DNA of 61,297 nt, taken from a virus. Its lineage: Duplodnaviria > Caudoviricetes. The position numbers and the translations under genes were made by a program. The DNA lies in the IMG/VR virus record IMGVR_UViG_3300033153_004916, positions 1-61,297 of that record. One strand, given 5' to 3'. Positions 680 through 42,708 of the stretch are shown piece by piece (the stretch's first letter is position 1; each line of letters starts with the position of its first letter). The notes beneath the pieces were generated by a model, which ran no database searches, had not been told where the DNA came from, and saw only the letters and a list, made by a program, of their open reading frames with translations.

Positions 680-1387
680 TTATTCCTCCTTTAAAAACTT
701 TTCAATGTAATCGCGATTCTTTGTAAATATAGGAATGTGATTGTCGATTCTCCATGTCCAATGCACTGTTTTATCTGGCGCTTTAACAATACAACGCCCA
801 CGTTTGAGATCCGTTGGAAGATATTCCCAATCTACTTCTCTTTCATGAAGCATATCGAGAATTTCCATGTTATTTTTATTTTGAATTTCGGTGTGCGAAA
901 AGTATTTTCTTGCTTGCATTTGGACAGAGTTTCTCGCCCAATCATGTTGGCGCCATATGAAATAGTTCGCAACTTCCGATTCGGGAATGGCAAATATTCG
1001 CGAATCGAACATCATTTTTCGTGATGGCATAACAACATCTCGACACCATTGATTTGCCGCCATAGTTGCACACGCGGCTGATATGGATGCTAATTTCTGA
1101 ATGCCGCGCCCAAACATCTCATCGCGCGTATGATGATTCTTAATCAGAAGCGAAACTTCGTCGCTTTGAATATAAGCAATGCGCGCTGAACTGAATTCTT
1201 TCGCTAACGCAAATCCAACTTCGTTCATTATACTAATTATTCTACTATCAAAGGTCTCCATTCCACGCGTCAATGTATGAAATGCGCGCCCATCAACGCG
1301 AATAATCCAGCACGAATTGGGTGGTAACTTATAGCGATAAACATCTTCGAACATTTTCATTCGTTCGCCTAAACTATCATTGATCAT
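680..1387 (-). CDS. thg1: tRNA(His) guanylyltransferase Thg1-like 3'-5' polymerase
   Basis: RMKMFE, IIRVDGRAFH, YIQSDEVSL, FDSR, YFIWRQ..RNS motifs; start moved to ATG 1387 with GGAGG SD. Confidence 0.93.
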   Translation of the reverse strand: MINDSLGERMKMFEDVYRYKLPPNSCWIIRVDGRAFHTLTRGMETFDSRIISIMNEVGFALAKEFSSARIAYIQSDEVSLLIKNHHTRDEMFGRGIQKLASISAACATMAANQWCRDVVMPSRKMMFDSRIFAIPESEVANYFIWRQHDWARNSVQMQARKYFSHTEIQNKNNMEILDMLHEREVDWEYLPTDLKRGRCIVKAPDKTVHWTWRIDNHIPIFTKNRDYIEKFLKEE

Positions 1388-1481
1388 CCATTTTCCTCCC
1401 AGCGTAGATTCTGATAAATATTGTTCCCGCCACACCTGAGATTAATCCCAGGAAGTAATATAGCGTTTCTGCCTCAGTCAT
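1377..1481 (-). CDS. 34-aa single-pass membrane microprotein
   Basis: MTEAETLYYFLGLISGVAGTIFIRIYAGRKMDDQ; fills the gap and overlaps both neighbours. Confidence 0.5.
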   Translation of the reverse strand: MTEAETLYYFLGLISGVAGTIFIRIYAGRKMDDQ

Positions 1482-2963: not shown

Positions 2964-3364
2964 TTAACATAATCTTCGCCGCGCTCAATGTCGGCCAAAT
3001 CTGCGCGCATTTTCGCAACGAGTTTCTCGCGCAATTCTTCGTATTCATCGCGATCCGAATTGCTAAATAATATTCGCAAAATGCGCATCGAAGAATCTTC
3101 ATCAAGGGCAATTGCGCACATTTCTACTTCTTTAAGTCTGCAAAACTGACAATCTTCTTTTTTATCATGATCTATAGTATAAGATATAAGACTTGATATT
3201 CTGCAATATCCACAAGATTGCCATAGTTCCCACTTCCAATGCATCCCGCGATCGCCTACCGTTAAACATTTTTCAAGCGCATCGTATGTTCCATAAGTTG
3301 TCCATTTTTCGATAGACTCTTCAATTTCTTCTATTATTTCTTCTTTGGTCGGCATTTCGTTCAT
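2939..3364 (-). CDS. Hypothetical Cys-containing protein
   Basis: CGYC..CQFC..C; coupled to the PolX stop. Confidence 0.65.
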   Translation of the reverse strand: MNEMPTKEEIIEEIEESIEKWTTYGTYDALEKCLTVGDRGMHWKWELWQSCGYCRISSLISYTIDHDKKEDCQFCRLKEVEMCAIALDEDSSMRILRILFSNSDRDEYEELREKLVAKMRADLADIERGEDYVNWEVEKCQ

Positions 3365-3819
3365 TAATAATCACGCTCCCGTGGTTCTTTCCATTTGAAA
3401 TTGATTTTCGCGAAAATATCTTTTTCGCTCGTGACTTCTATAAGTTCCCCACCGCGCCACAATCCATACTGATTGAGTTTCAAGCCCATACCCTTCGCCT
3501 TGCGCCGCATCCACACATTAAGCTTCGCGGACCCCGTAGCAAACAATATCGCTGGCCAGAATTCGCGATCAGCAATCGGCCAAATATCAATATGAACAAT
3601 GTGTTCTCCAACATGAATATCGCGATTAATGTGCTTATGAAATAGTTCCGACTCTTCTGGAAACACAACGACAATGTCCACATCGCCGATCAGCTCGCAC
3701 TCGCGCCGCAATGAACCACAGACCATATGTCTAAGATTATATGGTGTGATGTATTTTTCGATGAACTTGTCAGCGCCTTGCTGTGCGATTTCTCTGGATA
3801 TCTTTTCTCCTTTGCTCAT
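3364..3819 (-). CDS. polX: Minimal DNA polymerase X (palm and C-terminal subdomains only)
   Basis: CGSLRR..GDVDIVV, third Asp in HIDIW, FATGS..N..MR..AK..GLKLNQYGL, SEKDIF..EPRER. Confidence 0.9.
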   Translation of the reverse strand: MSKGEKISREIAQQGADKFIEKYITPYNLRHMVCGSLRRECELIGDVDIVVVFPEESELFHKHINRDIHVGEHIVHIDIWPIADREFWPAILFATGSAKLNVWMRRKAKGMGLKLNQYGLWRGGELIEVTSEKDIFAKINFKWKEPRERDY

Positions 3820-4164
3820 TTAATCACCCGTTTGAATTTCATATCCACATTTGCGCGCACATTCAACGACATCGTTCCAATCACAAACGCCATCATATTC
3901 ACCACCGATTTCGTCATTGAATAATACAATGCCATCTACGCTAAAACTAATACAACCCCAACGATAACGCACATAAACATCTGCGCCATTAGCAAGTTTT
4001 CCGCTCCATTGTGTTGGACACGCGTCGCAAGTCTGTTTTAATTTAATTATTCTTATTATTTTCATTCTATCACCTGTACAACATTTTTCCGCCATTTCAT
4101 GCGAAAAATATCGCTGCCCACATTGCCCGCACTCCCACTTTGTAATTCTCTTTGCGTTTACCAT
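3820..4164 (-). CDS. Hypothetical viral protein
   Basis: CGQC N-terminus; TCDACPTQWSG..VYVRYRWG; packed ORF. Confidence 0.65.
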   Translation of the reverse strand: MVNAKRITKWECGQCGQRYFSHEMAEKCCTGDRMKIIRIIKLKQTCDACPTQWSGKLANGADVYVRYRWGCISFSVDGIVLFNDEIGGEYDGVCDWNDVVECARKCGYEIQTGD

Positions 4165-8518: not shown

Positions 8519-8929
8519 CTAGAACACCATCCCTTCACCAACTTTTGGTCCAAAAGCTAGCGCTTTCAGCTCTTTTCGCGTGAGTTTCTTCTCTTTCGCA
8601 GGCGCTTTATATGGCGCAGGCGGTGGACCGTCAACCCACATATCATCCATCTCGTCAAGATATAGCAAATGATATGGCGTTTGTGCATCAAATCTCATCG
8701 AGTGCGCATGATCTTCGCAGTAATATCCGCCAGTCTCTTTGACTCGCACGAGCGCCACGGTGCCGCATTTGCGCGTTGGCGCTTCCAATATTTCGCAGGT
8801 TGCGCACACGCGGATATTCTTTTTCGATTCGGCGCGCAGATTGCACGCCTCGCACTTTGCCCTCTTTTGCGCGTCAGCAATTACGCTAACCCGACATTTA
8901 TGCTTCGGTGTTCCCGTCATTTTCTTCAT
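8519..8929 (-). CDS. Cys-rich zinc-binding protein
   Basis: CEAC, CATC, C..YCEDH; AGGAG SD. Confidence 0.65.
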   Translation of the reverse strand: MKKMTGTPKHKCRVSVIADAQKRAKCEACNLRAESKKNIRVCATCEILEAPTRKCGTVALVRVKETGGYYCEDHAHSMRFDAQTPYHLLYLDEMDDMWVDGPPPAPYKAPAKEKKLTRKELKALAFGPKVGEGMVF

Positions 8930-9638
8930 TCTCCTTCTTTGCTATTTTTTCGCGGTAGCGTTCAATGTCCTTCAGAACCCGCTCAACTTCTTTCGCAAGT
9001 TCGTCAAGGTTGTTCGCATTCATAAAAGGAATACGCACCGCATCTTCTGATGTGCTCCAGATTTCTATTTCAGAATCTGTTACAAAAGTCATAAGCTCCG
9101 TGTTTTTCGGTAAGTCTTCGAAGCGCCCAACCCACTCTGAAATCATCTTTAAGTCTTTGGCGATAGAAAACGCGAGTTCATATGATCTTTTGGATAACTT
9201 GTCCCAGTCATCCGAGCGATTAACTGAAGGATAGCGTATAGAAACCTCGATTGGTTTGGCGTTTTCGCTATCGCTACCCATTAGTTTATCAATATAAAAT
9301 TCGTATGCGTTTGGCGATGAATTTGTTTCTATTCTCATGACACCTTTCTCAATGATAAAGTAAAATACGTTTTCGAATTTCTTTATTTCTGCGCGCTTCG
9401 CATTAACTAACGATATTTCGAACGTATTCTCATCTCTATCTTCATCTAGCACAACGCACCGTTCCTTTTCCATCGTGAAAAAGTCGCAATACTTTGGTCT
9501 ATCTTCGCCTTCGGCGCATAAAAGATCTACACGACCCGATTTCATTATGCGCATGCGCAAAACATCGCCCGTGATAATTTTATCAATAGGCGCAAGTGCG
9601 CTGGTGCTTTCGATCTTTTCTATTTCCATTCTTAGCAT
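8898..9638 (-). CDS. Hypothetical protein
   Basis: 246-aa ORF, GAGG SD. Confidence 0.75.
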   Translation of the reverse strand: MLRMEIEKIESTSALAPIDKIITGDVLRMRIMKSGRVDLLCAEGEDRPKYCDFFTMEKERCVVLDEDRDENTFEISLVNAKRAEIKKFENVFYFIIEKGVMRIETNSSPNAYEFYIDKLMGSDSENAKPIEVSIRYPSVNRSDDWDKLSKRSYELAFSIAKDLKMISEWVGRFEDLPKNTELMTFVTDSEIEIWSTSEDAVRIPFMNANNLDELAKEVERVLKDIERYREKIAKKENEENDGNTEA

Positions 9639-9656
9639 AGTATTTCCTCATAGTTT

Positions 9657-9741
9657 TAGCGTGGGCGGCATTATGCAAACGGAGCGCGATGAAGGAGTTA
9701 GATCGCACATATTAAACCGTTCCATAATGCTATCGCCGCTA
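9657..9741 (-). ncRNA. Intergenic BHB motif 3 enclosing a 70-nt hairpin insert
   Basis: Minus strand TAGC-GGCG-ATA-GCATTATG...CATAATGC-CGCC-CAC-GCTA. Confidence 0.75.
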
Positions 9742-9751
9742 TGTGTTTTTC

Positions 9752-10144
9752 TTAGGCTGCCATACATTGTTCGAGCGCGCAAATTATACCCAAATCGTAT
9801 CTTATATAAGTAGGCGCGTTTTCTATTGTATTCCCGATATTTTCCGCGAACGCTTCTCCATCTAACATAACTTGGAGATCATCTTTAAAGAGTATTGCGC
9901 GCCGAACAGCATCCGAAACGCAAATCTCTTCAACGGCAATGCGCTTAATAGTCTTATCTGTTTTCGCGTATTTGATTATTTCTAAACCAACTTGCTCCCA
10001 GCCTTTCTCTGTGAAATAAAAGCGCGCAGTTGCACAACGGCGCTCTGGAGCATCCATGCCATTCTCACACATTATACCGCCAAATGCACTTCCAATATGC
10101 ATACGCTTATTATTGCCTCTCCACATTTGTATGCGCCGAAACAT
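9752..10144 (-). CDS. Hypothetical protein
   Basis: Start MFRRIQ with GGAGG SD; ARFYFTEKGW. Confidence 0.65.
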   Translation of the reverse strand: MFRRIQMWRGNNKRMHIGSAFGGIMCENGMDAPERRCATARFYFTEKGWEQVGLEIIKYAKTDKTIKRIAVEEICVSDAVRRAILFKDDLQVMLDGEAFAENIGNTIENAPTYIRYDLGIICALEQCMAA

Positions 10145-17444: not shown

Positions 17445-17662
17445 CTAGTCCTTATTCTAAGAGATGTTATATTTAAGTTATTCGGTAACGGTTCTACGCG
17501 CGCCAGAATCGTTATTTCGTCGATCATATCTTCTACTTCCCATCCACAACGCCATACGTTTTGATGCTTATCGATTTCTACGACTATTGGCTCATCCGGG
17601 CCATCTTTTTTGTATATAACCCAATAATATCCGGGTTCGATTTTTGGTTTATTTTCTTCCAT
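17441..17662 (-). CDS. Hypothetical protein
   Basis: EPGYYWV; coupled ORF. Confidence 0.65.
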   Translation of the reverse strand: MEENKPKIEPGYYWVIYKKDGPDEPIVVEIDKHQNVWRCGWEVEDMIDEITILARVEPLPNNLNITSLRIRTR

Positions 17663-18210
17663 TATTTAGCCTCCGTGCTCACAAATACGAATGGCGCTGC
17701 CACGCCACATGAATGATATGCGGCGGCTTCCAATGCGGATTTTGCGCGATTCTTCGCATTCTTATGAATGCGTGTCGTATGAAAACTGCCGAGCGCTATA
17801 TCTTCGCCGCATCCGAGTGCCGCATAGTCGTCGTGTCTTTCGGCGACCTGGAAGTCGTTCTGTATGATATATATGTGGCCTCTTATCCCCACGATGAAAA
17901 AGCCGCCCACTTCGCGTTCGTGCTGCTTTTCCATGTAACCCTTATTGCTGAATAGATCACGAATCCAGTCAATAAACTCCGTGCACATCCACATGTGAAG
18001 ATCACTATCGGATACATCTAACTTGGGTATCGGCGCACCATATTGGATTATCTGACCCATTCGAAACGAGCTTGTAAATCCGAACACAAATTCGCCACGC
18101 TTAAAGACTTTAACATCTTTACGTATGCCAATCTCTAGTCCACCAACTGCGGCCGAATCGCCACCCATGATTATACGCGGGCCGTCTTTAATTGCTACGA
18201 TGCAGGTCAT
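17662..18210 (-). CDS. Ntn-hydrolase, HslV/proteasome-beta-like peptidase
   Basis: N-terminal M-TCIVA..MGGDS, KVF, ALGCG..ALG. Confidence 0.8.
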   Translation of the reverse strand: MTCIVAIKDGPRIIMGGDSAAVGGLEIGIRKDVKVFKRGEFVFGFTSSFRMGQIIQYGAPIPKLDVSDSDLHMWMCTEFIDWIRDLFSNKGYMEKQHEREVGGFFIVGIRGHIYIIQNDFQVAERHDDYAALGCGEDIALGSFHTTRIHKNAKNRAKSALEAAAYHSCGVAAPFVFVSTEAK

Positions 18211-18401: not shown

Positions 18402-18699
18402 CCTTAAATATTTTGATTTCGCTCAGTTCGACGTTCGTAACTACTAATATGTTAAAATCATTATCTCTTGCGAACTTTTCAATATAATCGCGAATCTTTT
18501 CAAAATGTTCTTGTGACATTAACTTATTATGAGGATGCATTACATTTATCATATACGCACCACCTTTTTCAAAGCCCATTGCATTGACTATATCTATGAT
18601 ATCTTCTGTCATACTAATATCTATATGCGTGTAGCTATTTAAACATATCGGCTTGTACCCAGAATCTCCCACAGGCCGTTTTCGTCCGTATACCCACAA
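18394..18699 (-). CDS. Hypothetical protein (start uncertain)
   Basis: Packed ORF. Confidence 0.55.
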   Translation of the reverse strand: MWVYGRKRPVGDSGYKPICLNSYTHIDISMTEDIIDIVNAMGFEKGGAYMINVMHPHNKLMSQEHFEKIRDYIEKFARDNDFNILVVTNVELSEIKIFKDG

Positions 18700-19283
18700 T
18701 GCCGCGTATCCGATATACGCGCTTGCAAGCTGACATGCATCTCTTTCACGAGCAAATTCTTTGTGAATCCCGGACCGCCGACTATAATTTTCCTATCGGA
18801 TCCCTGTGATTTAATCTGCTCGACGACATGCCGCAACCACGATTTCAGTGCTTCCTCACGGCCGCGCTCGAATCGCCGCTGTGATTGTCCGCCTTTGCCG
18901 TGTTTGCGTGGCACCATGGATCTCTCATGCCATAGCACGCGGATATTCTCACCGTCTGTCTCACCGATAGTAGCCTCGTCAGCATCCGCTACTACAATAA
19001 GCGTATTATAAGGCCGGCCTGTTTCGGGCATCGGCAAATAGTCGCGACCACAATGATACTGTTTGCGGCGGCCGCTATATGGCTATATTAAAATTTCGCT
19101 GCCGTCTGTGAATACAGCGATGCTGGACATTGTATCGCCTATGTTATTTATTATCAAACGCAGGCCAGATTCGACTGACTTTCGTGTGGCCTTATTTTTG
19201 ATATTTTTTGCTTGCGCTAGTTCCGCTTTTGCGAACTGGCGCGTATTTCGCGTACCGTCTGGTATCAATAGGCTTATTTTCAT
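18639..19283 (-). CDS. prf1: aRF1/eRF1-family peptide chain release factor (N+M domains) with in-frame UAG at codon 67
   Basis: ISLLIP, AKNIKNK (NIKS loop), TAG at 19083-19085, YHCGRDY (YxCxxxF), KHGKGGQSQRRFER, GGPGFTK; both halves in the same frame. Confidence 0.88.
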
Positions 19284-19284
19284 C

Positions 19285-19380
19285 TCATTCACCTAGTCCT
19301 ATAAAGATCATCCAATAGTTTGCGTCATTGCGTAGCGCATCTGATGCGCGCTGGTATGCATCACTATCATATATTACCAT
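19285..19380 (-). CDS. 31-aa microprotein
   Basis: MVIYDSDAYQRASDALRNDANYWMIFIGLGE; stop 1 nt before the aRF1 ATG. Confidence 0.4.
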   Translation of the reverse strand: MVIYDSDAYQRASDALRNDANYWMIFIGLGE

Positions 19381-19668: not shown

Positions 19669-19742
19669 TGGTGGAAATTATAGGAGTCGAACCCATATTT
19701 GCGGTTCTGGAGACCGCCGTGCTGCCATTACACTAAATTCCC
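19669..19742 (-). tRNA. tRNA-Trp(CCA)
   Basis: Cloverleaf, loop CTCCAGA, encoded CCA. Confidence 0.9.
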
Positions 19743-19745
19743 ATA

Positions 19746-19820
19746 TGGGTGGAACGGCGAGAGTTGAACTCGCGACGACAGGATCACAGCCTGCTATGTT
19801 ACCATTACACCACGTCCCAC
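19746..19820 (-). tRNA. tRNA-His(GUG) with encoded G-1:C73
   Basis: Loop CTGTGAT, discriminator C. Confidence 0.9.
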
Positions 19821-19824
19821 ATGA

Positions 19825-19898
19825 TGGTCTGTCCAGCGTGAGTCGAACACGCGCTAGTCGGTCTACGGCCGACAGTTCTACCATTAAACTATGGACAG
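19825..19898 (-). tRNA. tRNA-Tyr(GUA), archaeal type, with C33
   Basis: C1:G72, A73, short variable loop, loop CCGTAGA. Confidence 0.85.
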
Positions 19899-19906
19899 AT
19901 TGCGGA

Positions 19907-19991
19907 TGGTGGGAGTGATCGGATTCGAACCGACGAATGCACAAGGCCCGGATCTTCAGTCCGGCGCTGTCCCAGGCTGAGCCACACTCCC
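19907..19991 (-). tRNA. tRNA-Phe(GAA) with a 13-nt variable region
   Basis: Loop CTGAAGA; variable region GCCTTGTGCATTC. Confidence 0.8.
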
Positions 19992-19994
19992 ATT

Positions 19995-20071
19995 TGGCGC
20001 AGACGGAATGGCTCGAACATTCTTTCTTCTGGTTAACAACCAGATGCCTATACCAGTTAGGCTTCGTCTGC
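19995..20071 (-). tRNA. tRNA-Asn(GUU)
   Basis: Loop TTGTTAA, G73. Confidence 0.88.
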
Positions 20072-20074
20072 ATT

Positions 20075-20151
20075 TGGTGCACCCGGCACGATTTGAACGT
20101 GCAGTCGCTGCTGTATCAGAACAGTGCTCTACCAGATTGAGCTACGAGTGC
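20075..20151 (-). tRNA. tRNA-Ile(GAU)
   Basis: Loop CTGATAC. Confidence 0.88.
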
Positions 20152-20154
20152 ATA

Positions 20155-20230
20155 TGGAGCCACAGACCGGAATCGAACCGGCTAAATCCCGCTTACAAGG
20201 CGGACACCCTTCCATTAGAGCATCTGTGGC
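20155..20230 (-). tRNA. tRNA-Thr(UGU)
   Basis: Loop CTTGTAA, U73. Confidence 0.88.
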
Positions 20231-20234
20231 ATGA

Positions 20235-20310
20235 TGAGCCTGGAGCGATTTGAACGCCCGATTCACTGGATTAAGAGTCCAGCGCTATAACCTAACTAAG
20301 CTACAGGCCC
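20235..20310 (-). tRNA. tRNA-Lys(CUU)
   Basis: Loop CTCTTAA; followed by TCA rather than CCA. Confidence 0.88.
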
Positions 20311-20313
20311 ATT

Positions 20314-20387
20314 TGGCAGGGATACACGGAATTGAACCGCAATCTCTGGAGTCAGAGTCCAGTGTGATACCGTTACACTATATCCCC
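20314..20387 (-). tRNA. tRNA-Gln(CUG)
   Basis: Loop CTCTGAC. Confidence 0.88.
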
Positions 20388-20390
20388 ATG

Positions 20391-20477
20391 TGGTGACGAC
20401 GGCATGATTTGAACATGCGTAGGGACTAACCCAACGGGGTCTAAGCCCGTCTCCTTTAACCGCTCGGATACGTCGCC
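20391..20477 (-). tRNA. tRNA-Leu(UAG)
   Basis: Loop CTTAGAC, long variable arm. Confidence 0.9.
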
Positions 20478-20480
20478 ATT

Positions 20481-20612
20481 TGGTGGCGTCGGAGGGATTC
20501 GAACCCATCGAAGTGCCTACGCACACCGGATATCTCAGCGAACATTTGAGTATAGCCCCTAAATGCTGTACGCACTTAAGTCCGGCCCCTTTGTCCACTT
20601 GGGTACGACGCC
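20481..20612 (-). tRNA. tRNA-Leu(UAA) with a 43-nt BHB intron (20532-20574) at position 37/38
   Basis: CCGGA-CTTA-AGT-GCG...CGC-TGAG-ATA-TCCGG; long variable arm. Confidence 0.88.
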
Positions 20613-20622
20613 ATTGCGAATG

Positions 20623-20709
20623 TGGCGCTGGGAACAGGATTTGAACCTGCGTGGCTTTTACACCTGACGCTCTCAAGGCGCCCGCCTTACCTAGCTTGGC
20701 TATCCCAGC
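20623..20709 (-). tRNA. tRNA-Ser(UGA)
   Basis: Loop CTTGAGA, long variable arm, G73. Confidence 0.9.
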
Positions 20710-20710
20710 A

Positions 20711-20799
20711 TGGCGCTGTGTTCAGGATTCGAACCCAAGAGGCCGTTAAGCCCATCTAGTTAGCAACCAGAGACGTTAAACCAACTCCGCCAACACAGC
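20711..20799 (-). tRNA. tRNA-Ser(GCU)
   Basis: Loop TTGCTAA, long variable arm, G73. Confidence 0.9.
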
Positions 20800-20807
20800 A
20801 CTGCGAA

Positions 20808-20883
20808 TGGTGGACAGAGTAGGAATCGAACCTACGAATTCCACTTTGTAAAAGTGGCCTCGTGACCATTTGAGTACCTGTCC
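20808..20883 (-). tRNA. tRNA-Val(UAC)
   Basis: Loop TTTACAA. Confidence 0.88.
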
Positions 20884-20886
20884 ATG

Positions 20887-20965
20887 TGGTGCTTCCGCCG
20901 GGATTCGAACCCGTGGTCTCCTGATTGAAAATCAGGAATGCTTGGCCTGACTACACTACGGAAGC
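20887..20965 (-). tRNA. tRNA-Glu(UUC)
   Basis: Loop TTTTCAA. Confidence 0.9.
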
Positions 20966-20966
20966 A

Positions 20967-21040
20967 TGGCTGCCCCGTTCGGTTTCGATCCGAAGTAACG
21001 AGATTCAAAGTCTCGTATGTTACCATTACATCACAGGGCA
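20967..21040 (-). tRNA. tRNA-Gln(UUG)
   Basis: Loop CTTTGAA; T-loop ATCGAAA. Confidence 0.85.
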
Positions 21041-21048
21041 GTTGCGAA

Positions 21049-21122
21049 TGGTGCGCGCTATGGAAATCGAATCCATGTCTCCGACTTGGAAGGACGGCAT
21101 AATACCACTATACTAAGCGCGC
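21049..21122 (-). tRNA. tRNA-Gly(UCC)
   Basis: Loop CTTCCAA, A73. Confidence 0.88.
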
Positions 21123-21129
21123 ATGCGAA

Positions 21130-21206
21130 TGGTGGGTCTAAAGGGAATCGAACCCTTGAATACGGGATTAAAAGTCCCGCGCTTTACCTAGCTGAGCCAT
21201 AGACCC
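21130..21206 (-). tRNA. tRNA-Lys(UUU)
   Basis: Loop CTTTTAA. Confidence 0.9.
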
Positions 21207-21209
21207 ATT

Positions 21210-21285
21210 TGGTGAGCATATTCGGATTCGAACCGAAACCGTCCGATTTAGAAGATCGGTGTCATATCCATTAGACCATATGCCC
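21210..21285 (-). tRNA. tRNA-Arg(UCU)
   Basis: Loop CTTCTAA. Confidence 0.9.
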
Positions 21286-21286
21286 A

Positions 21287-21362
21287 TGGTGAGCGCGACG
21301 AGACTCGAACTCGCAATCAATTGCTTCGAAGGCAATGGCCCTTCCGATTAGACTACACGCCC
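21287..21362 (-). tRNA. tRNA-Arg(UCG)
   Basis: Loop CTTCGAA. Confidence 0.9.
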
Positions 21363-21372
21363 ATTGCGAATG

Positions 21373-21449
21373 TGGTGGGTCCGTTCAGATTTGAACTGAA
21401 GTCGAAACGTTCCAAACGTCCAAGGATAACCAAACTACCCCACGGACCC
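21373..21449 (-). tRNA. tRNA-Pro(UGG)
   Basis: Loop TTTGGAA. Confidence 0.88.
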
Positions 21450-21461
21450 ATATGGCGCATA

Positions 21462-21538
21462 TGGCGCTCGGGCCGCGATTTGAACGCGAGTCGATGGAGT
21501 GACAATCCAGCATGATAACCTAGCTACACTACCCGAGC
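21462..21538 (-). tRNA. tRNA-Asp(GUC)
   Basis: Loop TTGTCAC, G73. Confidence 0.9.
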
Positions 21539-21927
21539 ATTTTTGCGATTGATTCCCATGATATATTTAGTGTATTCATGCACCAATGAACATGGCTATG
21601 ACATTTATGGCATAGAACGACATACTCATTTATATTGATTTCATTCAGCGAATCCCAACTTAGTAATGTTAATACTGGATGGGGTTCGCCGTTTTTATGG
21701 TGTATACACAATCTTTCTGGATATTCGCATATACGACATCTATTACCAATTTGATTTAATATATATGTTCGTTTTTGTTTGCGTCTGTTTCTTTCTCTTT
21801 CATTTCTTTTATTTTTTAATTCTTTATCGCTCATCTTTATTTTAGTTTTTGTTTCTTCTCCGCGAATTTTCCGTAAATACCATTCATGCTGATATTGTTT
21901 TTGTTTTTCTGCGTCTCTGTATCCCAT
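21529..21927 (-). CDS. HNH endonuclease
   Basis: Basic N-terminus, CRIC..LCIHHKN..VVLCHKCHSHVH. Confidence 0.82.
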   Translation of the reverse strand: MGYRDAEKQKQYQHEWYLRKIRGEETKTKIKMSDKELKNKRNERERNRRKQKRTYILNQIGNRCRICEYPERLCIHHKNGEPHPVLTLLSWDSLNEININEYVVLCHKCHSHVHWCMNTLNISWESIAKMLG

Positions 21928-21946
21928 ATTATTTTATATATGGGTA

Positions 21947-21960
21947 GCTTCTATTTAAAG
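21947..21960 (-). promoter_or_regulatory. TATA-like promoter CTTTAAATAGAAGC
   Basis: Upstream of the HNH ATG (probably leaderless); duplicate of 19652-19665. Confidence 0.6.
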
Positions 21961-21984
21961 CTTTCGAACTTTTAGCTGTATTGA

Positions 21985-22075
21985 TGGAATCGATGGGATT
22001 CGAACCCATAGCCTCCGCCTATCTTGGTGTTATACACATGCAAGGGCGGCGTTCTTCCGTTGGAACTACGATCCC
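21985..22075 (-). tRNA. tRNA-Ala(UGC) with an 18-nt BHB intron (22021-22038) at position 37/38
   Basis: G3:U70; CCGCC-CTTG-CAT-GTGT-ATA-ACAC-CAAG-ATA-GGCGG. Confidence 0.9.
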
Positions 22076-22084
22076 ATAATGATT

Positions 22085-22300
22085 TGCGATTAAGCGTGTC
22101 CGCTGGGAAGTTTGGTTTGGCATACCCAGGCCAACCGCCTGGGCAAAAAGATGCACCCAGACGAATCAAAAAACCGTCCAAAATTGCGATGAGAGGACCG
22201 GCAAATATTCGGTCCCTTTTGTATCGCGATTGGCTCCGCTAATTGTGCCTAAATGGCTAGCGGATCTCCGCCTGAGTTTCTGTGAAATCATTGTATCACC
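22085..22300 (-). ncRNA. Unassigned multi-hairpin RNA(s) inside the tRNA transcript
   Basis: Stems GCCCAGGC/GCCTGGGT, GGGACCG/CGGTCCT, TCCGCTAG/TTAGCGGA; no credible ORF. Confidence 0.4.
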
Positions 22301-22306
22301 GTAAAT

Positions 22307-22367
22307 TGCCGCCGAGGAATTGAATCCCCGATTTGTAAGATTGGCCCGATCAATAGCGGGTGGCGGC
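22307..22367 (-). ncRNA. Truncated tRNA-like element
   Basis: GCCGCC/GGCGGC terminal stem, CCCG/CGGG hairpin, T-arm-like GGGGA-TTCAAT-TCCTC. Confidence 0.4.
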
Positions 22368-22379
22368 CTTTGCGAATAT

Positions 22380-22453
22380 TGGTAGCAAGTCACAGAATCG
22401 AACTGTGGTCTTCGGATCATGAGTCCGATGGGCTTCCGTTACCCCAACTTGCT
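22380..22453 (-). tRNA. tRNA-Met(CAU), initiator-like
   Basis: A1:U72, AGC start, GGGGTA D-stem entry, loop CTCATGA. Confidence 0.85.
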
Positions 22454-25038: not shown

Positions 25039-25333
25039 GAAGCCAGAAGAGCAAGCACCACAAGAAGATGAATTTATAGTCTCTGACTTAAGTGTTGTCC
25101 CGCTTCCTATAGATGTGTTTGCGGATCTTATGGACAAACTTCCAAATGCGGAAGATTTTGAACCAGTTATGTTCGAAATCCAGACACAAACCGCCCGTAT
25201 CAAAGTGGCGAAAAGTACAACTGACCGACAACTTAAACTTATTCTATCTACATTCGAAAAAATCTCCGGTGTAACTCCAGAGGACTCTTGGGAATTTCAG
25301 GATGAACAGGCTACAAAGAAGGGATACCAGTGA
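25028..25333 (+). CDS. Hypothetical acidic protein
   Basis: GGAGG SD; GTGA overlap with terminase. Confidence 0.65.
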   Translation: MATEKPEEQAPQEDEFIVSDLSVVPLPIDVFADLMDKLPNAEDFEPVMFEIQTQTARIKVAKSTTDRQLKLILSTFEKISGVTPEDSWEFQDEQATKKGYQ

Positions 25334-26931
25334 TTGATTTCAAACAGACCGACCAGTTAAGAAAACTTTACTTTACTGCGATTAAAGATGACCAACTTCT
25401 TGAAGATATTATCAAAGCGTTCTGTTCTGGGTTTCTAAAAGATCATCTTGGACGCAAATTGATTTTACGCCCAGCACAAATGGAAATGGTCAAGGCCGCT
25501 CTTAGTTCAAAACGATTAGTTGTATTAGCACCCAGAGGAAGTGGTAAGTCGTATTCAATAGCTGTCGCGATTGCTATGCGATTATTCTTTTTGAGAGAAA
25601 ATGAAGAGATAGCTTTGATTGCGCCTACAAATAAGCAGGCTAAACGTGTATTCCAATATGTTGTATCGTTTCTGCAAGGCCACCCTGAACTCAAACGCCT
25701 CATTAAAACAATTCGTCATGCGAATCCGGCCCAGATTAGCCTATATGGTGGGTCGTTTATTTATTGTGTGCCCGTTTCGAAGAATGACCACGGAGAGAAC
25801 GTGCGTGGAATACATCCAACGTTCTGTGTGGTAGATGAGAGTGGTTTTATACCCGATGACATTTTTGTTCCGAACGTGGAACCGATAGTTGTTGCGAAGA
25901 GCGCGCCGTTTATTAACATAACTACACCAGGCCCGCGTGATAATCACGTTTTTAGATATTTATACGATGAGAAGATGGCTAAGCGGTGGCGACGTATCAA
26001 ATATACATGGCGCGACATGCTTGACCAGGGCGATGCGTACGAGCCAACGTACCCTCTTGACCCAGATACGGGCCTAAGTGAGATCGAATCGAAACTCGAA
26101 GAGTGGGGCGAGGATTCGCCGGACTTTCGCCGAGAATATATGTGTGAGTATGATGCAGACCAGTCGAATCTTTTCGGTGATCGCGTTTTCGAGAAGGCAT
26201 TTTATACATTGGAACGTTTCCGCGAAGGTGCGGAGGGTGAATTCAATGTGATGACTATCGATTATGGTAGAAAACACAACTCGACAGCGTGGGCAACATG
26301 GGGTTTAACCACAGATGATGAAGGACATACGAGTGCGAACCTAATTGATCTTCAAGAGATGATTCCGCGGGGTAAAGGATACTCACCAAATGCTATTCGA
26401 ACCGATATTATTAATTATGTGACTGTAAATAAGATCAATGCGATTGTAATTGATGCTACATCGTTCGGAGATTCGTTTAGCGCAGATCTTGAAGACTATA
26501 TTTATGAAAATCACGAGGGCATACACTTTTATAAGTTTATATTCAGTATTGGAAAGAGCGAATGGTTCTATAAATACAAATATTTACTTAGTGATAAGCG
26601 GTTGCGCATACCTCGGCCTAGTAAAATGGCCGATTTAGAAGAAAGTAACATGATGGCGCGTGCAATACACCAGCATAAGATACTTACCGCGACCATTTCA
26701 GAGAGAAGTGGTAAAATATTGATCTCTAAACCACGAACAGAGCATGATGATTTAGCTGATGCTATGATGCTTATCACATATTTCATAGAAAAGAATCCAA
26801 AATTCTCCGTGGACATAGAATTGACCGCTGTGCATAATATGTCACGGTCGCAACCATGGAGAACTGAGATTAGTACACCACAGCGGCTCGCTGAATTTGA
26901 CAATTTTAAAGATACGGGGATTTATTTATGA
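25330..26931 (+). CDS. terL: Terminase large subunit
   Basis: LRPAQ, Walker A APRGSGKS, Walker B CVVDE, TTP, FRREY, nuclease IDYG..DAT..HDDLADA. Confidence 0.93.
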   Translation: MIDFKQTDQLRKLYFTAIKDDQLLEDIIKAFCSGFLKDHLGRKLILRPAQMEMVKAALSSKRLVVLAPRGSGKSYSIAVAIAMRLFFLRENEEIALIAPTNKQAKRVFQYVVSFLQGHPELKRLIKTIRHANPAQISLYGGSFIYCVPVSKNDHGENVRGIHPTFCVVDESGFIPDDIFVPNVEPIVVAKSAPFINITTPGPRDNHVFRYLYDEKMAKRWRRIKYTWRDMLDQGDAYEPTYPLDPDTGLSEIESKLEEWGEDSPDFRREYMCEYDADQSNLFGDRVFEKAFYTLERFREGAEGEFNVMTIDYGRKHNSTAWATWGLTTDDEGHTSANLIDLQEMIPRGKGYSPNAIRTDIINYVTVNKINAIVIDATSFGDSFSADLEDYIYENHEGIHFYKFIFSIGKSEWFYKYKYLLSDKRLRIPRPSKMADLEESNMMARAIHQHKILTATISERSGKILISKPRTEHDDLADAMMLITYFIEKNPKFSVDIELTAVHNMSRSQPWRTEISTPQRLAEFDNFKDTGIYL

Positions 26932-27221
26932 AAATGCGTGGTGTTTTTGATTTGGTGATGCGATTGCTCGTTGACCATCCGAAATTGATAGGAGAAATAA
27001 TCTCTGTGGATTATATGAAAGGCATTATTCTTGATGAATACCATAAAGAGGTCGATAAACGCCAGATAGGTCGCGCACTTAAGACAATTGGCTTTTATCA
27101 AGAAAACATAAACGTTGTAGAGTCGCCAATTATCCGTAGAAAGTCTGTTTACCATCTCAATCATGGCATCTTTGATGCCGCAAGACTTAAATATGTCGTC
27201 AAGGACAAAAAGGAGGACTGA
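26928..27221 (+). CDS. Hypothetical protein, possibly DNA-binding
   Basis: ATGA overlap; KRQIGRALKTIGF. Confidence 0.6.
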   Translation: MKMRGVFDLVMRLLVDHPKLIGEIISVDYMKGIILDEYHKEVDKRQIGRALKTIGFYQENINVVESPIIRRKSVYHLNHGIFDAARLKYVVKDKKED

Positions 27222-27225
27222 TTTC

Positions 27226-28374
27226 ATGGCTATGCGCGGATTTAGGGCATCGAGATTTGCAGAAAAGGATGATATGCCACACGGCACGACACTGACTAGT
27301 CGTTTAAGCAATGCTGTACTGGCAATGACTAACTATGAGATACCACAGAATCTTAAATTCGAGGCTGCAAGACGATTGTATCAGCGTGATCCTGTTGTGA
27401 GATCATTTATCGAAACATATTGTAGTTATGTTTTAAAAGACGACTTCTATATCGATGGCGGTGACGAATCTAGTCGTAAGATAATCGAAGATTATTTTGC
27501 TAATGTCAATTGGCAGCAAATAATGATGAAGTGGTTACGCGAAAGTAAGGTATTTGGGATAGGATACCTTGAAATTACCAATACAAATCTTTTTAATAGG
27601 CCCGCGTGCACTATGCATGCAAAGGTTGATCCAAAGACCGGCGAAGTCACAGAGTGGATACAGAAGCCAAATACAAATGATAACAAAACGTGGACTAAAT
27701 TTGATGTTGGACAAATTGCGACACTGCCAAATGGTGGATTCGCTGATACGTATTATGGGATTAGCGATGTGGCTACAGTTGATTACGTTATTAAATTCTT
27801 GAAAGATCCGGCCGAGAGAGACTTGATAGTCACTCTCAATAAATATGCCGGTGATAGATATAAAATCAAAGTAGGAAGCGAGTTTAGGCCGGTATCTAAA
27901 GAACGATATCAGCGCGTTGTAGATTATTTCTCTGAACTCAAAACAGGAGAGGATGTAATATTCCGTGGAGACATAGAAGTTAATATGCTCACACCACAAT
28001 ATGCAGCTATTGACTTTAGAACATATTTAGATTATATATTAAATATACTATCTATAGGTCTTGGTGTTCCTCTTGTATTTTGGGTAGGCCAGGGCGCAAC
28101 AGAAGCTACTGCCAAAATCCAATTAGAAGCGTTCGAAGCTAATGTTAAAGCAACACGCTCACTAATGGAGTGGGCAATCAATGAACAAGTCATCCCCAAA
28201 ATCGTCCCTGGGACTAAATACCCCAAATTTAAATTTAAACCAATTAATTTGAACGAAGAATTCTTAGCTGCTCAAATTGAACAAATTAAACACAGTGTGA
28301 CACCAGCTGAAAATGCTGATAGACAAATCAAAAAGATTGAGAAGCTAGACGAAGTAGGAAATTTGGATGAGTGA
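27226..28374 (+). CDS. Portal protein
   Basis: Follows terL; DPVVRS, VFGIGYLE, YYGISDV, GLGVP, INEQVIPK. Confidence 0.85.
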   Translation: MAMRGFRASRFAEKDDMPHGTTLTSRLSNAVLAMTNYEIPQNLKFEAARRLYQRDPVVRSFIETYCSYVLKDDFYIDGGDESSRKIIEDYFANVNWQQIMMKWLRESKVFGIGYLEITNTNLFNRPACTMHAKVDPKTGEVTEWIQKPNTNDNKTWTKFDVGQIATLPNGGFADTYYGISDVATVDYVIKFLKDPAERDLIVTLNKYAGDRYKIKVGSEFRPVSKERYQRVVDYFSELKTGEDVIFRGDIEVNMLTPQYAAIDFRTYLDYILNILSIGLGVPLVFWVGQGATEATAKIQLEAFEANVKATRSLMEWAINEQVIPKIVPGTKYPKFKFKPINLNEEFLAAQIEQIKHSVTPAENADRQIKKIEKLDEVGNLDE

Positions 28375-42469: not shown

Positions 42470-42708
42470 TCCAACTCATTTGGCTCGTCAAAGAAACAGG
42501 ATGGACGCTTGAGTATATTCGCAGTTTGACGCCTTTACAATATGTGGTTACCGTTCAGGGTATTGCTAAATACAATTCTCTCGTGAACGAAAAAATAAAA
42601 AATAATAAGAAGGGCGATTCAAATGGCAATGATGGGATCAATGGCTCGGGGAGCGGGTGGAACTACAGCGGGCCTTCGTACAGCGCTCGCAGTAACAGCA
42701 GTAGATAA
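42424..42708 (+). CDS. Tail assembly chaperone -1 frameshift extension (T-like)
   Basis: -1 frame open 42394-42708; LVKETGWTLEYIRSLTPLQY. Confidence 0.65.
   Translation, partial: GFSDRVKRGNWGDPIIQLIWLVKETGWTLEYIRSLTPLQYVVTVQGIAKYNSLVNEKIKNNKKGDSNGNDGINGSGSGWNYSGPSYSARSNSSR

What the first reader, a model, noticed from the sequence alone, without database searches (positions are those of the whole stretch)
18639..19283. Viral aRF1 release factor split by a single in-frame amber codon: candidate readthrough autoregulation
Seen: two ORF-track pieces are one reading frame, ..AVFTDGSEILI-UAG-PYSGRRKQYHCGRDY..GGQ, with motifs intact on both sides. The UAG is followed by C, and an 8-bp stem (19075-19068 pairing with 19051-19044) begins 7 nt downstream. 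Known: bacterial RF2 and mimivirus eRF1 are autoregulated through internal stops. Inference: full-length factor is made only when termination is weak, a feedback sensor. Near-cognate Gln(CUG/UUG) and Tyr tRNAs are encoded next door, and a pyrrolysine-using host is an alternative. Caveat: the stop falls where aRF1 usually has Glu, so a GAG-to-TAG mutation or sequencing error is possible.
Basis: partly seen in the sequence, partly recalled or inferred. Interest (0 to 1): 0.85.

Follow-up and report, generated by a model that had tools for sequence, protein, structure and literature searches.

The report
Viral release-factor gene with built-in stop
A tailed virus that most likely infects archaea carries a shortened copy of the protein that ends translation, and this gene, like nearly all its relatives in other viruses, is interrupted by a stop codon that appears to be kept on purpose, probably so that the factor is made only when stop codons are being read through.

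Summary
Observation confirmed. Minus-strand gene 19283..18639 is one frame of 214 codons with a single TAG at codon 67 (19085-19083, next base C). It encodes a two-domain mini-aRF1: NIK(N), YxCxxxY and GGQ are present, while the N-terminal helix and the whole C domain are absent.

The stop is not a private accident. All 16 full-length family genes recovered as DNA are interrupted. Fifteen have 1-2 same-frame stops and one has a stop plus a +1 shift at CTT TAG C. The stops lie at 11 different codons and use TGA, TAG and TAA. One site carries TAG, TGA or TAA in sister sequences.

Both sides of shared stops are under purifying selection (dN/dS 0.04-0.19 downstream, dS above 1). A 67%-identical relative's ORF ends at exactly the window's codon. 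The stops sit in a weak-termination context, followed by C at 8/11 sites (p=1.6e-4).

The host is probably archaeal (tRNA genes with short introns, an A1:U72 tRNA-Met, Thg1).

Best reading: programmed leaky termination acting as a sensor of termination capacity. This is inferred, not shown. Pyrrolysine, an alternative code and sequencing error are unlikely. Closest precedents are bacterial RF2 and the Mimivirus release factor.

The parts
18639..19283 (-). mini-aRF1 gene: 214 codons including one internal TAG, plus terminal TAA (18641-18639)
   Evidence: Pfam eRF1_2 E 4.4e-23; PDB 4af1 aRF1 E 1.5e-12; AF2 model pLDDT 90.4, best Foldseek match 4af1 E 2.6e-14
19083..19085 (-). in-frame TAG, codon 67, followed by C at 19082 (TAG-CCA)
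   Evidence: sits in a mostly-Glu column of the family alignment; lies in predicted strand E64-68 of the model; P0061 (67% identical N-terminal ORF) ends at the same residue
19086..19283 (-). codons 1-66: most of the N (stop-codon-reading) domain up to the stop, including NIKN at 19205-19194
   Evidence: aligned to aRF1 from its NIKS region
18642..19082 (-). codons 68-214: end of the N domain (YHCGRDY, 19058-19038) and the whole M domain with GGQ (18893-18885)
   Evidence: G131 G132 Q133 invariant or near-invariant in A1
19289..19294 (-). AGGTGA, a Shine-Dalgarno-like hexamer 5 nt before the ATG
   Evidence: read directly; function inferred
   Evidence: z +0.19, 110/200 shuffles fold as well
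19669..22453 (-). upstream array of 24 tRNA genes on the same strand, including intron-bearing tRNA-Leu(UAA) (20481-20612, 43-nt intron) and tRNA-Ala(UGC) (about 21983-22076, 18-nt intron), and tRNA-Met with A1:U72 (22380-22453)
   Evidence: the same gene-in-tRNA-array layout occurs in 11 of 15 relatives' loci

Best explanation
The gene encodes a virus-made class-I release factor of the archaeal type, cut down to its codon-reading (N) and peptide-releasing (M, GGQ) domains. Its reading frame deliberately contains a stop codon in a weak-termination context. Ribosomes that terminate at UAG-C make only a 66-residue fragment. Ribosomes that insert a near-cognate tRNA there make the 214-residue factor. 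Termination and readthrough compete at that codon, so the yield of full-length factor rises when the cell's termination capacity is low relative to tRNA supply, and falls when host aRF1 or the viral factor is plentiful. That makes it a termination homeostat of the RF2 or Mimivirus kind. It works by plain readthrough, with any of the three stops, and the position of the stop in the gene is free. The gene sits at the end of the virus's own array of 24 tRNA genes, so the circuit may keep release-factor supply in step with the extra tRNAs the virus brings. Shown: the gene, its domains and motifs, the stop, the conservation and selection of the stop across the family, and its context bias. Inferred: readthrough by near-cognate tRNA, release activity without the C domain, the feedback itself, and the archaeal host.
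For: (1) Family habit. Of the 16 full-length family genes recovered as DNA from metagenomes (L008-L023), 15 carry 1-2 same-frame stops and the 16th needs a +1 shift at CTT TAG C. None is uninterrupted. L021 and L022 are identical in the gene, and L017 runs off its contig.
(2) The stops lie at 11 different codons. Counting occurrences: 10 TGA, 6 TAG including the window, and 2 TAA (the identical L021/L022).
(3) At codon 92/95 the sister sequences carry TAG (L018, L020), TGA (L019) and TAA (L021), so being a stop is what is conserved.
(4) Purifying selection on both sides of shared stops. L011/L012: dN/dS 0.043 upstream and 0.055 downstream, at dS about 1.5. L013/L014: 0.155 and 0.081. L018-L021 pairs: downstream 0.08-0.19.
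(5) The window's own site. P0061 (67% identical, 70 aa) ends exactly where the window's TAG lies. The two closest relatives, P0004 (90% over 130 columns) and P0022, exist only as ORFs starting after that point, and they group with the window at 99/94 and 95/90 support.
(6) Context. The stop is followed by C at 8 of 11 sites. Ordinary ORF terminators in the same DNA show this at 11 of 105 (Fisher p 1.5e-5), and 19.0% of the family's own codons begin with C (binomial p 1.6e-4). A CTN codon follows at 6 of 11 sites against 5.3% expected (p 8e-6).
(7) All three stops are used, once two kinds in one gene (L010: TGA and TAG). This fits an omnipotent aRF1-type competitor and not a single suppressor.
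(8) No general recoding. The window has long ORFs under table 11 (up to 2691 aa). TAG ends 9 of 67 ORFs. No CUA, UCA or UUA anticodon was found in the window.
(9) Factor anatomy. NIKN, YxCxxxY and GGQ are present, the model has pLDDT 90.4, and the best structural matches are aRF1 and ribosome-bound eRF1.
(10) Precedent. The Mimivirus/Megavirus release factor is translated through internal stops (PMC3521657, abstract and passages).
Against: No expression, protein or read data exist: no sequencing run was listed, so even the TAG base call rests on the assembly. The protein index does show the same two ORF pieces on 2 contigs.
Uninterrupted full-length relatives exist (P0003, P0005, P0006, P0007, P0010, P0017, P0025), so the stop is not obligatory.
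One stop is polymorphic: L009 has TAG where the otherwise identical P0009 has Glu. Stops can therefore come and go quickly, which also fits recurrent nonsense alleles.
The window's own context is TAG-CCA, not the commoner stop-CTN.
No significant downstream structure was found.
Upstream dN/dS in the L018-L021 clade is only 0.16-0.50.
The factor lacks the C domain that cellular aRF1 uses to bind aEF1-alpha, so its activity on ribosomes is assumed.
Only about 49% of the viral genome is in hand, so a suppressor tRNA elsewhere cannot be excluded.
Programmed near-cognate readthrough has not been demonstrated in Archaea, according to a 2021 review (PMC8211752, passages).
Confidence: 0.6

Rival explanations
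1. Constitutive throttle. The internal stop is selected only to keep the amount of a potentially harmful release factor very low through a fixed small readthrough fraction. There is no meaningful feedback from termination activity.
For: This reading has the same comparative evidence as the best explanation, none of which measures feedback. The free position of the stop fits a simple attenuator.
Against: The protein's own presumed substrate is a stop codon in the A site, so some feedback is hard to avoid if it is active. Weaker promoters or ribosome-binding sites are simpler throttles, yet the family repeatedly uses stops. The precedents (RF2, Mimivirus RF; PMC3521657) are read as autoregulatory.
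Confidence: 0.15
2. Two products, no readthrough. The virus makes the 66-residue N-terminal fragment and, from an internal start (TTG 19037 or ATG 19031), a free-standing GGQ domain of about 130 residues that acts as a codon-independent rescue or hydrolase factor.
For: An ORF from ATG 19031 exists and was called by gene finders (P0002, 130 aa). It would hold the complete M domain (eRF1_2 at residues 96-209). P0004 and P0022 start at the same place.
Against: This does not generalise. Relatives have stops at codons 6, 15 and 19 (nothing useful upstream) and at 184 and 208 (after GGQ). Codons between the stop and the internal start, including the conserved YHCG motif, are conserved in the family. 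Upstream parts are under purifying selection.
Confidence: 0.1
3. Dedicated decoding. The stop is read as an amino acid by a special tRNA, which could be a suppressor tRNA in the missing half of the genome, host pyrrolysine machinery for TAG, or an alternative genetic code.
For: Only about 49% of the genome is present. TAG is the rarest terminator in the window (9 of 67). ARAGORN in intron mode calls one ambiguous 'tRNA-Stop(tta)' in relative L017.
Against: No CUA, UCA or UUA anticodon occurs among the window's 24 tRNAs. The family uses all three stops, swaps them at one site, and mixes TGA and TAG in one gene. Flanking ORFs in relatives end with the same stop types (weak test). No other gene in the window shows a convincing in-frame stop (only two of the candidate pairs were inspected by translation). 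L017's in-frame stop is TGA, which does not match 'tta', and that tRNA reads as Gln(TTG) if the intron sits at the usual 37/38 position.
Confidence: 0.08
4. A private defect. In this particular virus the TAG is a recent GAG-to-TAG nonsense mutation or a sequencing or assembly error, and the gene is dead or the base is wrong.
For: The column is mostly Glu, one step from TAG. Reads could not be checked. A GAG/TAG polymorphism is seen in L009 versus P0009.
Against: P0061 at 67% identity ends at the same codon. The nearest relatives P0004 and P0022 are also interrupted upstream of the same ATG. There are no other stops or frameshifts, and all motifs are intact. All 16 DNA-level relatives are interrupted.
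Confidence: 0.07

Closest known systems
Mimivirus R726 / Megavirus mg280 class-I release factor (Jeudy et al. 2012, PMC3521657; abstract and passages read)
   Same: A virus-encoded eRF1/aRF1-type factor with NIKS, YxCxxxF and GGQ, whose translation must pass internal stop codons. It is interpreted as RF2-like autoregulation.
   Different: Those are giant viruses of amoebae with a full-length three-domain factor and two fixed recoding events (one frameshift and one readthrough). Here the virus is a tailed one, probably of archaea, and the factor has two domains and no C domain. There is usually one plain same-frame stop, of any of the three kinds, at positions that differ between lineages. Only one relative (L023) looks frameshift-dependent.
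Bacterial prfB (RF2) +1 frameshift autoregulation (as summarised in PMC3521657)
   Same: An in-frame stop followed by C inside a release-factor gene, so that the yield of full-length factor depends on termination efficiency. L023's CTT TAG C has the same form as the RF2 site CUU UGA C (the RF2 site sequence is recalled, not from a call).
   Different: RF2 is unrelated in fold, recognises only UGA/UAA, and needs a frameshift at one fixed site with an upstream Shine-Dalgarno stimulator. The window's gene stays in frame.
Plant eRF1 autoregulation by readthrough plus nonsense-mediated decay (PMC5397192; only the search listing and the start of the abstract seen)
   Same: The level of an eRF1-type factor is controlled through readthrough of a stop codon.
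   Different: In the plant case, as recalled rather than read here, the stop is the gene's own terminal stop and the effector arm is NMD. Here the stop is internal and no decay pathway is implied.
Cellular archaeal aRF1 (e.g. PDB 4af1, 3agk)
   Same: The best sequence and structure match. It shares the NIKS-type loop, the YxC motif, GGQ and the M-domain fold.
   Different: Cellular relatives have 24-30 (one 12) more residues at the N-terminus, and 97-106 more at the C-terminus, which is the eRF1_3 domain. No eRF1_3 is found anywhere in the window. Identity is only about 24-35%. The viral family forms its own clade (100/100 against three cellular sequences).

Membership tests
aRF1/eRF1 class-I release factors | M domain (Pfam eRF1_2) with the GGQ loop | tested here: met
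   PF03464 E 4.4e-23, residues 96-209. GGQ lies at residues 131-133, and G131 and G132 are invariant in A1.
aRF1/eRF1 class-I release factors | N-domain stop-codon-reading motifs (NIKS-type loop, YxCxxxF). The motif definitions are as quoted in PMC3521657. | tested here: met
   NIKN lies at residues 27-30 (family consensus NIKSK) and YHCGRDY at 76-82. Y76 and C78 are at least 90% conserved, and the region aligns to the 4af1 NIKS region. Pfam eRF1_1 itself was not reported for the window protein at E up to 1, although it is precomputed for some relatives.
aRF1/eRF1 class-I release factors | C domain (Pfam eRF1_3) that binds the GTPase partner (aEF1-alpha or eRF3) | tested here: not met
   The protein ends where the M domain ends. 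Cellular relatives continue for 97-106 residues. PF03465 is not found in any frame of the window, while the control genomes ring. It is also absent from neighbouring ORFs.
aRF1/eRF1 class-I release factors | N-terminal helix and the loop before the first strand | tested here: not met
   The mini-factor starts at the first strand (MKISLLIP), whereas 7 of the 8 cellular relatives carry 24-30 residues before it, and one (P0052) 12.
aRF1/eRF1 class-I release factors | Overall fold of the N and M domains | tested here: met
   The AF2 model has pLDDT 90.4. The top Foldseek matches are 4af1 (E 2.6e-14) and ribosome-bound eRF1 chains, with 236-247 aligned columns.
aRF1/eRF1 class-I release factors | Stop-codon-dependent peptide release on the ribosome | not testable with these tools
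   This needs biochemistry.
Release-factor genes autoregulated through an internal stop (RF2 type, Mimivirus type) | An internal stop inside the factor's own coding sequence, conserved among relatives | tested here: met
   all 16 DNA-level relatives are interrupted. Shared stops persist at dS above 1. Stop kinds swap at one site. P0061 ends at the window's codon.
Release-factor genes autoregulated through an internal stop (RF2 type, Mimivirus type) | Weak termination context at the internal stop | tested here: met
   The stop is followed by C at 8 of 11 sites, against 11 of 105 ordinary terminators (p 1.5e-5) and 19% of family codons (p 1.6e-4). The window has TAG-C. That a following C weakens termination is established knowledge and was not tested here.
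Release-factor genes autoregulated through an internal stop (RF2 type, Mimivirus type) | A frameshift is required (RF2) | tested here: not met
   In the window and 15 relatives, upstream and downstream parts are in the same frame. Only L023 needs a +1 shift.
Release-factor genes autoregulated through an internal stop (RF2 type, Mimivirus type) | Yield of full-length factor responds to factor activity | not testable with these tools
   This needs reporter or in vitro assays.
Stop-codon reassignment or pyrrolysine decoding | The same stop occurs in frame in other genes, a cognate suppressor or pylT tRNA is present, and the codon is avoided as a terminator | tested here: not met
   No other convincing interrupted gene was found. 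No CUA, UCA or UUA anticodon occurs in 24 tRNAs. TAG ends 9 of 67 ORFs. Only about 49% of the genome is available.

The most novel reading that the evidence does not exclude
Tailed viruses of archaea carry a GTPase-independent, two-domain release factor whose gene is a movable-stop termination sensor. Any of the three stop codons, placed almost anywhere in the frame but in a stop-C(UN) context, gates synthesis of the factor by near-cognate readthrough. This couples release-factor supply to the virus's own large tRNA supply. It would be the first programmed standard-amino-acid readthrough, and the first release-factor autoregulation, described in the archaeal domain. It would also be a case where selection maintains the presence of a stop but not its position.
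Probability: 0.5. Interest if true: 0.85.

Novelty: new variant of a known kind. Interest (0 to 1): 0.8.

Why it matters
Release-factor autoregulation through an internal stop is a textbook circuit in bacteria (RF2) and a curiosity in giant viruses. Jeudy et al. state it is absent from eukaryotic and archaeal homologues (PMC3521657). A 2021 review lists only selenocysteine and pyrrolysine as demonstrated readthrough in Archaea (PMC8211752).

If the reading is right, a whole family of viral aRF1 genes reinvented the circuit in the archaeal world, many times over and at different codons. That gives a natural series of readthrough contexts (stop-CUA, stop-CUC, UAG-CCA) for a system where termination context rules are almost unknown.

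It also shows that a release factor without its GTPase-binding domain is worth a virus's keeping. And it suggests that viruses bringing dozens of tRNAs must also manage termination fidelity.

There is a practical consequence too. Gene callers split or truncate these genes: the database holds them as fragments of 44-200 residues, so the family is invisible in standard annotation.

Tried and rejected
Alternative code for the whole virus: rejected. Table 11 gives long ORFs (up to 2691 aa). Making TAG sense adds fewer long ORFs than making TGA or TAA sense.

Other interrupted genes in the window: I listed all same-frame ORF pairs split by one stop and translated two of them. In the PolX pair (3364-4164), the upstream ORF is an unrelated Zn-ribbon protein, so these are separate genes. 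For 8898-9878 the upstream piece looks like non-coding junk. Seven further pairs are ordinary stop-then-ATG junctions. The remaining small pairs were not examined by homology.

Selenocysteine, an mRNA intron, editing and hopping: rejected without a dedicated test. Relatives align across the stops without insertions, and TAG and TAA occur at the site where a sister sequence has TGA.

Downstream stimulatory structure: the window's stem is not significant. Of 16 stops folded in relatives, only L013 (z -2.70) and L016 (z -2.56) stand out.

Close relatives among isolated phages: blastn and tblastn against 50,697 phage records found nothing. PHROGs has no family for the protein. A scan of IMG/VR with the single protein found nothing. 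With alignment A1 it gave 6 loci, of which only L002 belongs to the wider family.

Host lineage: the nearest cellular aRF1 picked up in GTDB genomes are mostly Thermoplasmatota, but the search pattern biases this. The window's large terminase was not found in 4 chosen archaeal genomes. It was also not found in the 301 genomes searched of the phylum of G001. The host lineage stays open.

Sequencing runs: none was listed, and no RNA holder was listed.

Literature: searches found no paper describing an aRF1/eRF1 gene of a phage or archaeal virus with internal stops. Burroughs and Aravind 2019 (PMC6514570) was searched for phage, virus, viral, caudovir and in-frame; it mentions viruses once, in another context. 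Supplements were closed and not seen, and theirs might list viral members. Subscription journals are not covered by the library.

Complex prediction, the protein-atlas search, the search of protein representatives, the listing of cluster members and build_rna_model were not used.
Full report
WHAT IS THERE.

The window is a complete IMG/VR virus record of 61,297 bases, estimated at about 49% of a genome, with 41% G+C. It is a tailed virus. The large terminase is at 25330-26931, the portal at 27163-28374 and the tape-measure protein at 42623-45184.

On the minus strand, ATG 19283 opens one frame of 214 codons ending in TAA at 18641-18639. It has a single internal TAG at 19085-19083 (codon 67), followed by C.

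Read through, the product is an aRF1/eRF1-type factor:
- Pfam eRF1_2 scores E 4.4e-23.
- The best solved relative is archaeal aRF1 4af1, E 1.5e-12, aligned in one stretch from residue 21 to 209, that is, across the stop.
- An AlphaFold model built on 32 aligned sequences has mean pLDDT 90.4. Its best structural matches are 4af1 (E 2.6e-14) and ribosome-bound eRF1.

The codon-reading motifs are present: NIKN at 27-30 and YHCGRDY at 76-82. So is the catalytic GGQ at 131-133.

The protein is a cut-down version. Cellular relatives carry 24-30 (one 12) more residues before its first strand and 97-106 more after its end, which is the C domain that binds the GTPase partner. No eRF1_3 domain is encoded anywhere in the window in any frame, while the control archaeal genomes ring. 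Neighbouring ORFs do not carry it either.

THE OBSERVATION.

The one weak item is the stem. The arms do pair (6 G-C and 2 G-U), but the region folds no better than dinucleotide shuffles (z +0.19; 110 of 200 shuffles fold as well). It also lies in conserved coding sequence.

THE HOST IS PROBABLY AN ARCHAEON.

Immediately upstream on the same strand lies an array of tRNA genes. ARAGORN finds 22 and 24 in intron mode. Rfam confirms 23.

- Two carry short introns next to the anticodon. tRNA-Leu(UAA) has a 43-nt intron and tRNA-Ala(UGC) an 18-nt intron, the latter confirmed by Rfam at 21985-22075. From established knowledge, introns of this size and position are the kind removed by the archaeal/eukaryal splicing endonuclease, whereas bacterial tRNA introns are group I.
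- The tRNA-Met has A1:U72, which is the archaeal/eukaryal initiator mark (recalled).
- The virus encodes a Thg1-type tRNA-His guanylyltransferase at 680-1435 (E 6e-25).
- The release factor itself is of the archaeal type.
- Relatives' loci also hold intron-bearing tRNAs.

I put the archaeal host at about 0.9. The lineage is open.

RELATIVES SHOW THE STOP IS A FAMILY HABIT.

A protein search found a family of about 213-residue mini-aRF1s at 39-57% identity. In the database they appear as a few whole ORFs and many fragments. The fragments either start inside the gene or end at one common point..ELPx.

A pattern scan of JGI metagenome contigs, which is blind to ORF calls, returned 16 family genes as DNA (L008-L023). 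The rest of the 80 loci are ordinary archaeal aRF1. Translating the 16 in frame gives these results:
- 15 of 16 contain one or two same-frame stops.
- The sixteenth (L023) continues in the +1 frame from CTT TAG C.
- None is uninterrupted.
- L021 and L022 are identical in the gene. L017 runs off its contig after 182 codons.

With the window included, the stops occupy 11 different codons (6, 15, 19, 46, 50, 64, 67, 72, 92/95, 184, 208) and use all three stop codons. L010 has TGA and TAG in one gene. At codon 92/95 the four distinct sequences of one clade have TAG, TGA, TAG and TAA, so what is conserved there is 'stop', not a codon.

Fragments in the protein index add a probable twelfth site. Four ORFs on contigs of 1-98 kb all end before the ..YLGC.. 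segment.

SELECTION.

Pairs that share a stop are strongly diverged at synonymous sites yet conserved in protein on both sides (Nei-Gojobori):

| Pair | dS | dN/dS upstream | dN/dS downstream |
|---|---|---|---|
| L011/L012 | about 1.5 | 0.043 | 0.055 |
| L013/L014 | 1.0-2.0 | 0.155 | 0.081 |
| L018-L021 clade | (not summarised) | 0.16-0.50 | 0.08-0.19 |

pS is near saturation, so the dS values are rough, but pN being far below pS is robust. A dead gene would not keep both halves, in one frame, with a stop held at the same codon.

THE WINDOW'S OWN SITE.

The N-terminal piece finds one relative, P0061 (70 aa, 67% identical). That ORF ends at exactly the residue before the window's TAG (..DEIFI against ..SEILI). 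Its contig is only 970 bases, so a contig end cannot be excluded, but the coincidence of position argues for a stop.

The two closest relatives are P0004 (90% identity over 130 columns, on a 106-kb contig) and P0022. They exist only as ORFs beginning at the same internal ATG as the window's downstream piece. They form a clade with the window (99/94 and 95/90 support). That change has since been kept.

CONTEXT.

Counting each site once, the stop is followed by C at 8 of 11 sites and by a CTN codon at 6 of 11.
- Ordinary terminators of 105 ORFs of at least 90 aa in the same DNA are followed by C in 11 cases and by CT in 4 (Fisher p 1.5e-5 and 2.8e-5).
- Within the family's own 3180 codons, 19.0% begin with C and 5.3% with CT (binomial p 1.6e-4 and 8e-6).
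- In the window itself, only 3 of 67 ORF terminators are followed by C.

From established knowledge, C after the stop is the weakest termination context for both bacterial and eRF1-type factors, and stop-CUA is a known leaky context in eukaryotes and their viruses. This was not tested here.

Two of the three sites followed by A (L013/L014 and L016) are the only ones with a notable hairpin downstream. The numbers are too small to lean on.

At four of the six TGA sites, some homologue has Trp. TAG and TAA sites align mostly with Glu, Gln, Lys, Arg or Tyr. These are one-step neighbours of the stops and also the residues that near-cognate tRNAs would insert.

WHAT IT IS NOT.

- Not a recoded genome.
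- No suppressor tRNA in the window.
- No other convincingly interrupted gene.
- Flanking ORFs in relatives end with all three stops (weak test).
- Pyrrolysine cannot explain TGA and TAA at homologous or neighbouring sites.
- A split into two working polypeptides cannot explain stops at codon 6 or codon 208.
- Sequencing error cannot explain 16 independent assemblies.

RESULTS THAT CUT THE OTHER WAY.

- Seven uninterrupted full-length ORFs exist: P0003, P0005, P0006, P0007, P0010, P0017 and P0025. Four of these form one clade.
- L009 has TAG where the otherwise identical P0009 has Glu. At least that stop is young or polymorphic.
- A shorter sub-family (L002, L088, P0037) ends about 30 residues after GGQ without internal stops.
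- No read, RNA or protein evidence is available.

MECHANISM (INFERRED).

Termination and near-cognate decoding compete at the internal stop. Full-length factor is made only by readthrough, so its yield should rise when termination capacity is low relative to tRNA supply, and fall when aRF1 activity, host or viral, is high. An omnipotent aRF1-type factor explains why any of the three stops serves and why they interchange.

The gene lies at the end of the tRNA array in the window, and within or beside tRNA arrays in 11 of 15 relatives' loci. A virus that floods the cell with tRNAs raises readthrough everywhere, and a readthrough-gated release factor would correct exactly that.

Loss of the C domain suggests action without the GTPase partner. 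From recall, eRF1 lacking its C domain keeps release activity in vitro.

My confidence by step:
- The stop is a selected feature: about 0.9.
- It is passed by readthrough: about 0.75.
- It works as a feedback sensor: about 0.6.

COMPARISON WITH WHAT IS KNOWN.

The closest precedent is the Mimivirus/Megavirus release factor, which is translated through a frameshift and a readthrough. Its authors state that such autoregulation is otherwise confined to bacterial RF2 and is absent from eukaryotic and archaeal homologues (PMC3521657). A 2021 review of recoding in Archaea lists readthrough only for selenocysteine and pyrrolysine, and frameshifting in fucA and in tail genes of haloarchaeal viruses (PMC8211752).

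Six literature searches found no description of a phage or archaeal-virus aRF1 with internal stops.

The protein passes the membership tests for the N and M domains of aRF1 and fails those for the C domain and the N-terminal helix. It is therefore a truncated member of the superfamily and forms its own viral clade.

The circuit works like RF2 or Mimivirus RF but differs in several ways: it uses plain readthrough, any stop kind, movable positions and a two-domain factor, and it sits in a different host domain. I rate it a new variant of a known kind, with interest 0.8.

Noticed in passing
L023:3797-4440 (shift site about 3939-3945): One family member cannot be read in a single frame. Frame 0 ends at CTT TAG C and the homologous protein continues in the +1 frame. 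This has the same form as the bacterial RF2 frameshift site (CUU UGA C, recalled). It could equally be a one-base assembly error in a T run.
   Followed up: partly
window 20481-20612 and about 21983-22076, minus strand: Two tRNA genes carry short introns beside the anticodon: Leu-UAA (43 nt) and Ala-UGC (18 nt). Default ARAGORN missed both. The Ala gene is confirmed by Rfam. Relatives' arrays have similar ones (Ile-GAU in L018, L019 and L020; Arg, Asn, Thr and His elsewhere).
   Followed up: partly
window 680-1435, minus strand: A Thg1-type tRNA-His guanylyltransferase (Pfam E 6e-25) is encoded in the same virus as a tRNA-His gene whose genomic flank already has a G at position -1.
   Followed up: no
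window 3364-3819 and 17662-18210, minus strand: A minimal DNA polymerase X of 151 residues (thumb E 1.3e-19, weak palm match) and an HslV-like peptidase (PHROG 1040, E 3.9e-21).
   Followed up: no
L017:441-559: ARAGORN in intron mode calls a 'tRNA-Stop(tta)' with a 46-nt intron. If the intron sits at the usual 37/38 position, the same gene reads as tRNA-Gln(TTG). L014:3499-3572 is an odd tRNA with a 6-nt anticodon loop.
   Followed up: partly
L009:828-830 versus protein P0009: Two otherwise identical genes from different assemblies differ at codon 208: TAG in one, Glu in the other. In this lineage the first 13 conserved codons also lack an ATG at the family's usual start.
   Followed up: partly
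L013:1755-1772, L014:1464-1481, L016:358-383: The in-frame stops followed by A rather than C have a hairpin 9-12 nt downstream. L013 scores z -2.70 and L016 z -2.56. The L013 and L014 stems differ by two one-sided changes that keep the pairing.
   Followed up: partly
L002:2009-2512, L088:359-835, protein P0037: A shorter sub-family of the viral factor ends about 30 residues after GGQ. It has no internal stop and no continuation in another frame.
   Followed up: partly
window 50993-59068, plus strand: A single ORF of 2691 residues follows the tape-measure gene and two other large ORFs of 1312 and 631 residues. No PHROG matched the latter two, and the 2691-residue ORF was not searched.
   Followed up: no
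proteins P0063, P0064, P0065, P0067: Four short ORFs on contigs of 1-98 kb cover only the GGQ region. They all end at the same residue, before the ..YLGC.. segment. This points to genes with two internal stops, at about codons 92 and 166.
   Followed up: partly
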